A DNA stretch of 64,000 nucleotides from Naegleria gruberi (Eukaryota): NCBI GenBank assembly GCA_000004985.1, contig GG738847.1; one strand, 5' to 3'. Below are positions 45,769 through 48,246 of this stretch, one piece after another. A model generated the notes under the pieces. That model was given only the letters and a program-made list of their open reading frames with translations, was not told the origin of the DNA and searched no databases. A program made the translations under genes and the position numbers. Within the stretch, counting starts at the first letter, position 1, and the number at the start of each line of letters is the position of its first letter.

Positions 45769-46963
45769 TTAATTAAAAACTTCCCAAATTGGCCTCAATG
45801 ATTTGTATGGAATTGCAAATGGAATCTCAATGAATCCTCTAAAGATCTTCATCACATCTAATCCTGCCAACACACCAATAATTGCACCAATTTCTCCCAA
45901 AGCAGATTCAAGCGTAACAGAATGAATCTCTTCAATTTCATACTGATTCAGTGTTGCATACGCAAATGAAACTACAATGATATCTTCCTCATGTTCAGTC
46001 AATCCAATTGCTGCCAAAGAGGCTCTCTGAAAACAATCATTAATCCAATAAATCCTATTTAACAATACTTACCCATCTCATTTCTTCTCTTGTGGAGGAA
46101 CTGCTACTAGTTTCGCTAGTGCTACTTCCTTCCCCAGAAGATTTAATTGATTGAGCTTTTCTTGCTGATATACTTTCAACAGTTCCAGAGCTACCTGATT
46201 GGTGACTGTCCAAATACTTGGTATGATACTTTGTCAAAATGAAAAAATTATCAACTCCAGCCATTGCAAAATTACTTTCCGAAACTACATCAGGAACTGT
46301 TCCTTGTTTGTGAAATGAAACTTGTAATCCGTATCTAAAATAAAGATTGTTTGGCATCTTGGGAACTTTGAAAAAGAGTGAATAGGAAGCTCCATATCCA
46401 GTCAAGGAAGCTTCTGGAAGTGGATGATGGGTATCATTATTAATAACAATGCAATGAAAACTATCAATCACTGCCGAATCGTAATGCATTTCAAAGTCTA
46501 TGATAGATCCATTTTCTAAAACTCTTGTAGTATGTTCCAATGTGAGGTTACAAGTATCACAATGCTTCAAAGCATTATAATTACAAATAGTAATTGCAGG
46601 AAAAGCCATCGGAATGTGTTCAACCAATGAAAGTGAAGTCACAGGATTATGTAAGGCATGAAGGTAGTGAGTTGCCACATCATATATAAACCAAATTGTG
46701 AAGGATATCGCAGCAATCCAACAAACAAATATTATTAATTCCTGATATCTAATTCCGAAAGGTAATTTAGGAAATCCAAAATCATTCTTTTCAAATCTCT
46801 TTTTCTTCAGTGTTTTCGAATCCACTTCTCCGTCATGATTTAATGGAACAACCTTGTTAGTATTTATTGAAGCTGTCTTTTTAGCCTCTTCTTGTTGTTT
46901 GCTTTTTGATGATGCCGTAGGAATTTGATGTTGCTGCTGTTGATCCCCCACCACAGCTGCCAT
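45769..46963 (-). CDS. Two-exon gene for a DEG/ENaC (amiloride-sensitive Na+ channel / ASIC superfamily)-like two-TM channel subunit, ~385 aa.
   Basis: Exon 1 is 46963-46073 (MAAVVGDQQQQ...REEMRW), with donor TGG|GTAAGT. The intron is 46072-46027 (46 nt). Exon 2 is 46026-45769 (RASLAAIGLTEHEED...). TM1 is LIIFVCWIAAISFTIWFIY. The post-TM1 motif MAFPAITICNYN matches the family hallmark FPA(V/I)T(I/L)CN. A Cys-rich extracellular domain follows. The pre-TM2 segment LGEIGAIIGVLAGLDVMKIF resembles ASIC [18 protein letters not shown]. The intron is confirmed by colinear alignment to the intron-less equivalent region of the paralog at 47141. Confidence 0.75.
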
Positions 46964-47140
46964 TATTATTTCTTTTTTGTTATTTTTGAGCCAAAATCTA
47001 CAGTTAACGGTTATTAAGGTTTATAAGGGCAATTTCGCTACGTTTTAACGCCATGTACTTTACATGTTCACAAACCAAGTTGTTGGTATTCATATGTTTA
47101 TACTATGCTCATCACGAGTGCGGATTTTTGAAAAGAAAAA

Positions 47141-48246
47141 ATGTCTAATATTCATCAAGGTGTGGAATTAAAAGAAGTGGGAGCTACAGCTCTTGCAAAG
47201 GAAGAGACTGTTATTAAGGTATTGAGGATTTCAAATTCGGAAGAACAACACAAGGAAGAGGAAAAACCAAAAAGAAAAACTATTGTGCATCATCATCATG
47301 GCGATTATGAGGAAGGAGAAGAATCGGAAGCAGATTGCTTACACTCTAAAATAGGATACTCCATTAAGGATTTAATTTTAGTGTGTATTTGGTTTATATT
47401 ATTAGGGTTTTATATATGGTATCTTGTTGAATTGGCAATTTCCTTAGATGAGGAACTGAATAATCCAACAACATCAATCTCCTTTGTTGAGAAGATTCCC
47501 AAGGATTTACCTCAAGTCACAGTGTGTAATTGGAATTCATTTGAAGGTTGTGGAGGGCAGTGTAATTTAACTCTAGTTGATTGTTCGCAAGTTGACTCGG
47601 AAGGTACTCCCATCCCTTGTGTAAATCATCCTCGTTATGTTCAATATGAACAGAATGGTAATACTTTTTACTGTTATCAATATAATTATGATGAGAAGCA
47701 TCCTATTCAAGTTAAGAGTACTGGTTATGAGGGAAGTGTTTCATTGTACTTTAATTTCCCAACAATGCCTCAAACTGAGACCAATAGAAATGGCCTACAG
47801 GTGACATTTAACAAGATTGGCCATGAACCAAATGTTTTGGATGAAACCAATTATGCCTATGAGAATGTAGATAATTTCTATGTCATGACTCACGTTGTTG
47901 TTGAAACCTTGGCTAAGAATGATAATCATCAACCTGAATATTGGGATTTATCCTATTCTAGAATTGGAACTGCCACGGAAAATGTGACAGTGGTATCATT
48001 CTGTTATGCTACCTTGAATATCAATGATGTTAAGGAAGTTCAAACTGTAACAAATATTGAAATTTTTGCCAAAGTTTGTGAAATGTTATTAATCTTAGTG
48101 GTAAGTTGTTGGTGTAACAAATACTTTGTCTCATTAATATATAATCAAAGGGAATTGATTTTATCAAAGTTATAAGAGGAATTGTGCTCATCCCAGAAGC
48201 AATCAAATATAGAGAATTCAAGGAAATCTTTGAAACTTTCATCTAA
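47141..48246 (+). CDS. Two-exon paralog of the adjacent DEG/ENaC-like channel gene, ~350 aa, divergently transcribed from it.
   Basis: Exon 1 is 47141-48100 (MSNIHQGVELKE...FAKVCEMLLILV), with donor GTG|GTAAGT. The intron is 48101-48150 (50 nt). Exon 2 is 48151-48246 (GIDFIKVIRGIVLIPEAIKYREFKEIFETFI*), homologous to the partner's GLDVMKIFRGFIEIPFAIPYKSLRPIWEVFN*. TM1 is LILVCIWFILLGFYIWYLV. LPQVTVCNWNSFEGCGGQCNLTL parallels FPAITICNYNALKHCDTCNLTL. The two start codons are only ~177 bp apart (46963 / 47141). Confidence 0.75.

What the first reader, a model, noticed from the sequence alone, without database searches (positions are those of the whole stretch)
45769..48246. Divergent pair of DEG/ENaC-like channel paralogs in a protist genome
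Two head-to-head genes encode short (~350-385 aa) two-TM proteins. Their ATGs are ~177 bp apart. Both have a large Cys-rich extracellular loop. The post-TM1 motif MAFPAITICNYN (paralog: QVTVCNWN) matches the DEG/ENaC/ASIC hallmark FPA(V/I)T(I/L)CN. The pre-TM2 segment LGEIGAIIGVLAGL resembles the ASIC [14 protein letters not shown] selectivity-filter region. DEG/ENaC channels are considered essentially metazoan, with only scattered reports in a few unicellular lineages. A tandem, diverged, intron-containing pair near a telomere in an amoebozoan-like genome is therefore unusual. The proteins are also much shorter than animal subunits, i.e. a minimal version of the fold. The two genes also validate each other's intron positions.
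Basis: partly seen in the sequence, partly recalled or inferred. Interest (0 to 1): 0.75.

Follow-up and report, generated by a model that had tools for sequence, protein, structure and literature searches.

The report
Short ENaC-like channel gene pair, Naegleria
Two head-to-head genes about 15 kb from a chromosome end of the amoeboflagellate Naegleria gruberi encode stripped-down relatives of animal ENaC/ASIC ion channels; the homology is real, but such genes have been reported in Naegleria before, and the residues that make animal channels sodium-selective are not conserved.

Summary
Coordinates, the 177-bp divergent spacer, the 46- and 50-nt GT-AG introns and the 382/351-aa two-TM products are all as described.

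The window is Naegleria gruberi NEG-M (Heterolobosea), not an amoebozoan. It ends in the TTTGGG telomere about 15 kb from the pair.

- **Homology.** Gene A passes Pfam ASC (52.9 bits, cutoff 23.6). Gene B does not pass alone, but it is a clear paralog of A (E = 8e-54).
- **Family.** A profile finds about 80 clusters of mostly 300-400-aa relatives: several Naegleria paralogs, a malawimonad and marine metagenomes. This family aligns with canonical DEG/ENaC from TM1 to TM2 (hhalign 99.7%, E = 5e-26).
- **Differences.** The proteins keep the palm/β-ball core. By the alignment and model they lack finger and thumb, the HG motif and most conserved cysteines. The GAS filter reads G(L/I)D-xx-K-xx-R.
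- **Pairing.** A-type and B-type genes sit next to each other in N. fowleri-like DNA and in an uncultured relative, and the head-to-head unit occurs twice in N. gruberi-like DNA. This suggests heteromers.

Verdict: new members of a Naegleria ENaC-like family that, from my memory only, was reported by Studer et al. 2011. Moderate interest.

The parts
46073..46963 (-). Gene A exon 1 (codons 1-297): cytoplasmic N-terminus, TM1 (about 46670-46747), FPAITICN (46580-46603), most of the ectodomain and a Ser-rich linker.
   Evidence: Pfam ASC 52.9 bits. 99% identical to the metagenome ORF P0001.
46027..46072 (-). Gene A intron, 46 nt, GTAAGT...TTTCAG, phase 0, directly after the codons for ...EEMRW.
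   Evidence: The junction is confirmed by the intronless homolog P0003 and by the NCBI model P0006. The A-type gene in L003 has an intron at the same position.
45769..46026 (-). Gene A exon 2 (codons 298-382 plus stop): beta12, TM2 (about 45820-45906) with GLD at 45856-45864, and a C-tail ending ...IWEVFN.
   Evidence: Aligns to ASIC beta12-TM2. Called on its own as the 82-aa ORF P0078 in a metagenome.
46964..47140 (.). 177-bp spacer between the two divergent ATGs, presumed to be a shared bidirectional promoter.
   Evidence: It shows 1 substitution in the 237 intergenic-side bases compared with strain contig L001. Promoter function is inferred, not tested.
47141..48100 (+). Gene B exon 1 (codons 1-320): N-terminus, TM1 (about 47363-47440), LPQVTVCN (47507-47530), the ectodomain and the first half of TM2.
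48101..48150 (+). Gene B intron, 50 nt, GTAAGT...CAAAG, phase 0, inside TM2 directly before the GID codons.
   Evidence: The junction is confirmed by the intronless homolog P0014. The B-type gene in L003 has an intron at the same position.
48151..48246 (+). Gene B exon 2 (codons 321-351 plus stop): GID (48151-48159), the second half of TM2 and the C-tail ...IFETFI.

Best explanation
The two genes encode an A-type and a B-type subunit of a short, divergent clade of the DEG/ENaC/ASIC channel superfamily in Naegleria gruberi.

Each subunit has a cytoplasmic N-terminus, TM1, an almost all-beta ectodomain of about 200-230 aa, TM2 and a short basic C-tail. By the alignment and the model, the ectodomain is the palm/beta-ball core of ASIC without the helical finger and the Cys-rich thumb.

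By homology, three subunits should assemble around a pore lined by TM2. Because A-type and B-type genes are kept next to each other, and here share a 177-bp divergent spacer, they most likely co-assemble into heteromers, as ENaC alpha/beta/gamma subunits do.

The pore chemistry is not that of ENaC. The Ser of the GAS belt is Asp. A conserved Lys lies one turn below it. The Glu at the intracellular end that helps set Na+ selectivity in ASIC is Arg here. The channel is therefore unlikely to be a classic amiloride-sensitive, highly Na+-selective channel. Its stimulus (pH, osmotic, mechanical or ligand) and its ion selectivity are unknown.

Shown: gene structure, homology, fold, family signature and conserved adjacency. 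Inferred: trimer formation, A/B heteromers, channel activity and surface location.
For: - **Organism.** The neighbouring ORF equals XP_002682376.1 of N. gruberi NEG-M. TTTGGG is the candidate telomere repeat reported for N. gruberi (PMC3622300).
- **Sequence homology.** Gene A scores Pfam ASC E = 4e-14, 52.9 bits against a cutoff of 23.6, in 3 colinear stretches. Of 46 family sequences and fragments scanned, 43 hit ASC. phmmer and profile searches of PDB hit ASIC1/2/5, FaNaC and BRTNaC1. hhalign of the short family against canonical DEG/ENaC gives 99.7% probability, E = 5.2e-26, 262 columns from TM1 to TM2. The large insertions in the canonical family fall where I place finger and thumb.
- **Topology.** There are two hydrophobic segments. 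The N-x-T sequon (NLT) in the loop is kept in 5 of the 6 aligned members; P0006 has GLT there.
- **Selection.** 14 of 16 exon differences between strains are at third codon positions.
- **Pairing.** B-type then A-type genes lie in tandem between a SET gene and a PseudoU-synthase gene in L003 and in the N. fowleri-like L008. N. fowleri FDP41_006660 and 006661 have consecutive locus tags. A second head-to-head A'/B' unit occurs in L006. An NJ tree separates an A-type and a B-type clade.
- **Pore signature.** G(L/I)D-xx-K-xx-R in the short family against GxS-xx-(T/S)-xx-E in canonical hits.
Against: - Gene B alone has no Pfam ASC hit. Its TM2 lacks the glycines of the GxxxG-like stretch.
- The HG motif, the GAS filter, the conserved Cys-rich domains and the finger/thumb are absent, so three textbook family features fail.
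- Lys and Arg in the segment aligned to TM2b are unusual for a cation pore.
- No multimer model, expression data or electrophysiology is available.
- The NJ tree is crude: BLOSUM distances and no support values.
Confidence: 0.7

Rival explanations
1. The proteins work like PAC/TMEM206, the roughly 350-aa proton-activated chloride channel that shares the ASIC-like trimeric fold. On this reading they are anion-permeable, acid-gated channels rather than ENaC/ASIC-type cation channels.
Confidence: 0.12
2. The fold is retained but the proteins are not ion channels. They could be a surface sensor, adhesion protein or regulatory subunit. This applies especially to gene B, whose TM2 is the most degenerate.
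For: The HG motif and the GAS filter are missing. B has no ASC hit. Its TM2 reads FAKVCEMLLILVGIDFIK, without the Gly-rich stretch.
Against: TM2 and the G(L/I)D-xx-K motif are among the best-conserved parts of the whole family, which is what a pore-lining segment would show. Purifying selection is evident. Every characterised member of this fold that I know of is a channel.
Confidence: 0.1
3. The genes are a recent lateral acquisition from an animal, or an assembly contaminant, rather than native protist genes.
For: The patchy distribution of DEG/ENaC outside animals has led authors to consider lateral transfer (PMC10507113).
Against: The genes lie in a contiguous N. gruberi chromosome end with the native telomere, and the window as a whole is 33% GC. 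They carry short spliceosomal introns at positions shared with other heteroloboseans. Multiple deep paralogs occur in N. gruberi and N. fowleri-like DNA with conserved synteny, and one was found in N. lovaniensis. The family is more divergent from animal channels than animal channels are from each other.
Confidence: 0.03
4. The ORFs are pseudogenes or chance ORFs.
For: No annotated N. gruberi protein matching A or B turned up in the protein collection.
Against: The spliced frames are intact. 14 of 16 strain differences are at third codon positions. The paralog match is E = 8e-54. The family is conserved.
Confidence: 0.02

Closest known systems
DEG/ENaC/ASIC superfamily (Pfam PF00858 ASC; chicken ASIC1 6AVE, Aplysia FaNaC 7YVB, human ENaC 6BQN/6WTH)
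   Different: About 350-380 aa instead of 450-700. No finger helices and no Cys-rich thumb by the alignment and model; in A a Ser-rich linker sits where I place the thumb. No HG motif. GAS becomes G(L/I)D. The lower-pore Glu becomes Arg, with an added conserved Lys. Only 4 conserved Cys.
Other Naegleria ASC-domain 'predicted proteins' (N. gruberi D2V013/NAEGRDRAFT_62133, D2VC18/66414, D2V6F8/64420, D2V6F9/64421; N. fowleri FDP41_006660/006661; N. lovaniensis C9374_010561)
   Same: Same short architecture and pore signature. A is 74% identical to 62133. A-type and B-type clades are shared, and the N. fowleri pair has consecutive locus tags.
   Different: Genes A and B themselves have no annotated counterpart in the collection. 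Here the pair is head-to-head and subtelomeric. In the N. fowleri-like contig L008 and in L003 the pair is a B-then-A tandem between a SET gene and a PseudoU-synthase gene.
PAC / TMEM206 proton-activated chloride channel (7JI3, 8FBL)
   Different: Lower scores than DEG/ENaC in every test. No Pfam TMEM206 hit. The FPAxTxCN and beta12-TM2 sequence motifs here are of the DEG/ENaC type.
Non-metazoan DEG/ENaC reported from Tunicaraptor, Cafeteria and Symbiodinium (PMC10507113)
   Same: DEG/ENaC homologs in unicellular eukaryotes.
   Different: Those sequences cluster with the animal ASIC/ENaC sub-clusters. That survey's BLASTp of Discoba and Amoebozoa recovered nothing, so the Naegleria short clade is a separate, more divergent group.

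Membership tests
DEG/ENaC/ASIC (Pfam ASC, PF00858) | Significant match to the ASC profile above the gathering score | tested here: met
   Gene A: 52.9 bits against a cutoff of 23.6, E = 4e-14. 43 of 46 family sequences and fragments hit ASC. Gene B alone has no hit at E <= 10; it is linked through A (E = 8e-54) and through the family profile (hhalign 99.7%).
DEG/ENaC/ASIC | Two transmembrane helices flanking a large extracellular domain, with both termini cytoplasmic | tested here: met
   Hydropathy segments: A 73-98 and 334-363, B 70-103 and 302-338. AF2 helices at 70-102 and 331-366 in paralog P0006. An NLT sequon in the loop is kept in 5 of the 6 aligned members. This is an in-silico test only.
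DEG/ENaC/ASIC | Post-TM1 motif FPA(V/I)T(I/L/V)CN | tested here: met
   A has FPAITICN. B has the degenerate LPQVTVCN. P, T, C and N are invariant in the six-member family alignment.
DEG/ENaC/ASIC | Palm/beta-ball ectodomain fold | tested here: met
DEG/ENaC/ASIC | Conserved His-Gly (HG) motif in the pre-TM1 cytoplasmic segment | tested here: not met
   The canonical alignment shows ...TTxHG.... The short family has no conserved HG. A has none. B has an HG inside a His run (residues 53-54); it recurs in the B' copy of L006 but is not conserved in the B-type gene of L003.
DEG/ENaC/ASIC | (G/S)xS 'GAS belt' selectivity filter in TM2 | tested here: not met
   GAS aligns to GLD in A and GID in B. 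Asp occupies this position in 43 of 67 pattern matches; a few of those matches are off register.
DEG/ENaC/ASIC | Cys-rich extracellular domains (thumb) and helical finger | tested here: not met
   The hhalign insertions of the canonical family, which carry the Cys-rich block, have no counterpart here. Only 4 Cys are invariant. DSSP shows one short helix in the ectodomain.
DEG/ENaC/ASIC | Trimeric assembly | not testable with these tools
   Only monomer AF2 was available.
DEG/ENaC/ASIC | Amiloride-sensitive, Na+-preferring current | not testable with these tools
   This needs electrophysiology. The known selectivity determinants are replaced.
PAC/TMEM206 | Sequence match to the family, and closest structural neighbour | tested here: not met
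P2X receptors | Structural similarity to the P2X two-TM trimer | tested here: not met

The most novel reading that the evidence does not exclude
The Naegleria genes represent a widespread protist 'mini-DEG/ENaC' clade that recent channel-evolution surveys have overlooked. It occurs in Heterolobosea, at least one malawimonad and uncultured organisms sampled in metagenomes. On this reading the clade preserves the ancestral minimal core (palm plus beta-ball plus two TMs) from which animal DEG/ENaC arose by gaining finger and thumb, and to which PAC is related. It works as an A/B heteromeric channel with a non-canonical G(L/I)D-K-R pore. That would push the origin of the superfamily back towards the last eukaryotic common ancestor.
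Probability: 0.3. Interest if true: 0.7.

Novelty: new member of a known kind. Interest (0 to 1): 0.4.

Why it matters
DEG/ENaC channels are still usually described as animal-specific, with a few protist exceptions. A 2023 survey that BLAST-searched Discoba and Amoebozoa recovered nothing there (PMC10507113).

This locus shows that Naegleria carries a whole family of short, fast-evolving homologs, arranged as conserved A/B gene pairs. Related sequences occur in a malawimonad and in marine metagenomes.

If these proteins are functional channels, they define the minimal working core of the ENaC/ASIC/PAC fold. They would also give a tractable handle on how that fold gates and selects ions without finger, thumb, HG motif or GAS belt.

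For N. gruberi annotation, the two genes appear to be missing from the public protein set.

The basic claim, an ENaC-like gene in Naegleria, is not new.

Tried and rejected
I used exon-wise rows and homologs instead.
- The first AF2 model (gene B exon 1, 8-row alignment) had pLDDT 53. I used it only as a weak check.
- The look-up of encoding contigs had no record for the NCBI N. gruberi proteins. I therefore could not see the official gene models at this locus or the neighbours of NAEGRDRAFT_62133.
- I first guessed that the 377-aa ORF at 54542-55675 was the third paralog. It is actin.
- I considered that XP_002682380 (62133) might be the allele of gene A, because its accession lies close to that of the SLC30 gene. 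I rejected this. One metagenome holds contigs for both genes, 62133 has its own B' partner, and GenBank accessions are not positional here (64420 and 64421 differ by 126).
- The word-indexed protein search added nothing beyond 5 metagenome ORFs.
- The afdb50 fold library was unavailable.
- Studer et al. 2011 and Hanukoglu 2016 are not in the held library. Six full-text searches found no open paper that mentions ENaC or degenerin homologs in Naegleria.

Full report
**What is there.** The region was read and spliced in silico. Gene A runs on the minus strand from ATG 46963 to stop 45769-45771. It has one 46-nt GT-AG intron (46027-46072) and encodes 382 aa. Gene B runs on the plus strand from ATG 47141 to stop 48244-48246. 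It has one 50-nt GT-AG intron (48101-48150) and encodes 351 aa. The start codons are 177 bp apart. The proteins are 32% identical over 318 residues (E = 8e-54). Each has two hydrophobic segments flanking a loop of about 200-230 aa.

**Are the gene models real?** Both splice junctions are confirmed by homologs that read through without an intron. P0003 (a metagenome ORF) and the NCBI model P0006 do so for A. P0014 does so for B. An uncultured relative (contig L003) has introns at the same two positions in its A-type and B-type genes. The two introns are not at the same place in A and B. A's follows ...MRW, upstream of beta12. B's lies inside TM2, directly before GID. A 1.7-kb contig from a near-identical strain (L001, 98.9% nt identity) differs from gene A at 16 exon positions, 14 of them third codon positions. 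The gene is therefore under purifying selection.

**Organism and setting.** The ORF that ends 12 bp from gene A's stop codon is identical to XP_002682376.1, the SLC30 protein of Naegleria gruberi NEG-M. The window ends in 68 copies of TTTGGG (63592-64000). That is the candidate telomere repeat reported for N. gruberi (PMC3622300). This is a heterolobosean (Discoba) chromosome end, not an amoebozoan one. The pair lies 15.3 kb from the telomere array.

**Homology.**
- Gene A passes Pfam ASC (PF00858) at 52.9 bits against a cutoff of 23.6, E = 4e-14, in three colinear stretches.
- Gene B alone has no ASC hit.
- phmmer of A against PDB sequences finds ASIC1 at E = 3e-4. The aligned pieces are TM1-FPAVTLCN, the strand aligned to ASIC1's GIKVQIH (which I take to be a palm strand) and beta12-TM2.
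- A six-member family profile finds ASIC1/2/5 at about 1e-5, and also FaNaC, BRTNaC1 and, more weakly, PAC/TMEM206.
- A profile search of 1.84 billion representative proteins finds 149 hits. Of these, 80 are below 1e-10 and nearly all of those are 300-400 aa or fragments. Canonical 450-700-aa DEG/ENaC appear only in the tail, at about 1e-4.
- Of 46 family sequences and fragments scanned, 43 hit Pfam ASC.
- hhalign of the short family against an alignment of canonical hits gives 99.7% probability and E = 5.2e-26 over 262 columns from TM1 to the end of TM2. The canonical family carries two large insertions where I place the finger and the Cys-rich thumb.

The FPAxTxCN match is therefore not isolated.

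**What is not conserved.**
- The canonical alignment shows the pre-TM1 ...TTxHG... motif. The short family has none.
- Only four extracellular Cys are invariant, so 'Cys-rich' is an overstatement.
- In TM2 the HMMER alignments place A's LGEIGAIIGVLAGLDVMKIFRGF against ASIC's [23 protein letters not shown]. GAS aligns to GLD, Thr448 to Lys and Glu451 to Arg.
- Across the family, the position aligned to the GAS serine is Asp in 43 of 67 pattern matches, the +3 position is Lys in 47 and the +6 position is Arg in 26. A few of those matches are off register. Canonical hits show GxS, T/S and E at the same positions.
- From established work on ASIC and ENaC, cited from my own knowledge, the G/SxS belt and the lower-pore acidic residues set Na+ selectivity. 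A Na+-selective, amiloride-sensitive phenotype should therefore not be assumed.

**Family and gene order.** Named members include N. gruberi D2V013 (62133), D2VC18 (66414), D2V6F8 and D2V6F9 (64420, 64421) and D2VVE1. They also include N. fowleri FDP41_006660 and 006661, N. lovaniensis C9374_010561, a Gefionella okellyi (malawimonad) transcript and a 23-member cluster that includes TARA Oceans metagenome sequences. All those that carry a name are labelled 'predicted', 'hypothetical' or 'uncharacterized'.

A rough NJ tree separates two clades. The A-type clade holds A, 62133, L005, L003_A and Nfo_6661. The B-type clade holds B, P0014, L003_B, Nfo_6660 and 66414. In L003 and in an N. fowleri-like contig (L008), a B-type gene is followed in tandem by an A-type gene between a SET gene and a PseudoU-synthase gene. 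In an N. gruberi-like metagenome, the 62133-type gene has its own divergently oriented B' partner, 67% identical to B. The head-to-head unit therefore exists at least twice. This repeated A/B adjacency is the basis for proposing co-regulation and heteromeric assembly. That is an inference.

[quoted passage not shown] One survey BLAST-searched Discoba and Amoebozoa and found candidates only in holozoans, one alveolate and one stramenopile (PMC10507113). An earlier BLAST study found no DEG/ENaC homologs in any of the pathogenic protozoan genomes it examined (PMC3681921).

From my own memory, and unverifiable here, Studer et al. 2011 (Physiol Genomics 43:844) reported an ENaC/degenerin homolog in N. 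gruberi. The paralogs are public, and the one I scanned (P0006) scores above the Pfam ASC cutoff. The presence of ENaC-like genes in Naegleria is therefore known.

No annotated N. gruberi protein matching A or B turned up in the collection. These two genes look like unannotated members.

I did not find the following described in the papers I could search: the short architecture, the G(L/I)D-K-R pore signature, the A/B pairing, and the spread to a malawimonad and to metagenomes.

The most likely function is an A/B trimeric channel of unknown gating and selectivity. I put homology at about 0.95, channel activity at about 0.6 and heteromer formation at about 0.4.

The main rivals are a PAC-like anion channel and a non-channel membrane protein.

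I file the pair as a new member of a known kind, with moderate interest.

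Noticed in passing
window 63592-64000: A terminal array of 68 TTTGGG repeats, the candidate N. gruberi telomere repeat. The window is a true chromosome end.
   Followed up: yes
window 56732-63150 (minus strand): The last two large ORFs before the telomere are a 1253-aa protein with a REJ domain (the polycystin-1 / sperm receptor type) plus EGF, and an adjoining 884-aa ORF with no Pfam hit. 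They may be one gene. This is another domain best known from animal sensory proteins, lying next to the ENaC-like pair.
   Followed up: partly
L006 (metagenome ERR1078381) 3-1606: A second head-to-head unit: a 62133-type A' gene with a divergently oriented B' gene (67% aa identity to gene B; the matching stretches are 76-83% nt identical to the window). The whole pair was duplicated as a block.
   Followed up: partly
L003 1642-6766 and L008 290-10096: Conserved synteny in an uncultured heterolobosean-like organism and in an N. fowleri-like contig: SET gene (minus), B-type gene, A-type gene, PseudoU synthase (minus). In L008 a histidine-kinase/response-regulator hybrid gene lies between SET and the B-type gene.
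   Followed up: partly
window 44378-45757 (plus strand): A His-rich SLC30 (ZnT/CDF) transporter, identical to XP_002682376.1, converges on gene A with only 11 bases between the two stop codons. The two genes must share or overlap 3' UTR and terminator sequence.
   Followed up: no
window 54542-55675 (plus strand): An intronless actin gene (377 aa) in the subtelomeric region.
   Followed up: no
window 28512-35959 (plus strand): A WW-domain ORF is followed, with an overlap, by a 1891-aa myosin-head ORF with several TH1 matches. This is probably one long unconventional myosin gene with an intron or frameshift between the two ORFs.
   Followed up: no
window 39511-43746 (plus strand): An NHL/teneurin-like ORF is followed by a 1057-aa ORF with teneurin-type EGF repeats and a C-terminal protein kinase domain. 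It looks like a receptor-kinase-like gene.
   Followed up: no
P0018 (N. gruberi D2VVE1, 1563 aa): One annotated N. gruberi model carries the short ASC-like domain at the C-terminal end (residues 1374-1548) of a 1563-aa protein. It is either a fused gene model or a real multidomain variant.
   Followed up: no
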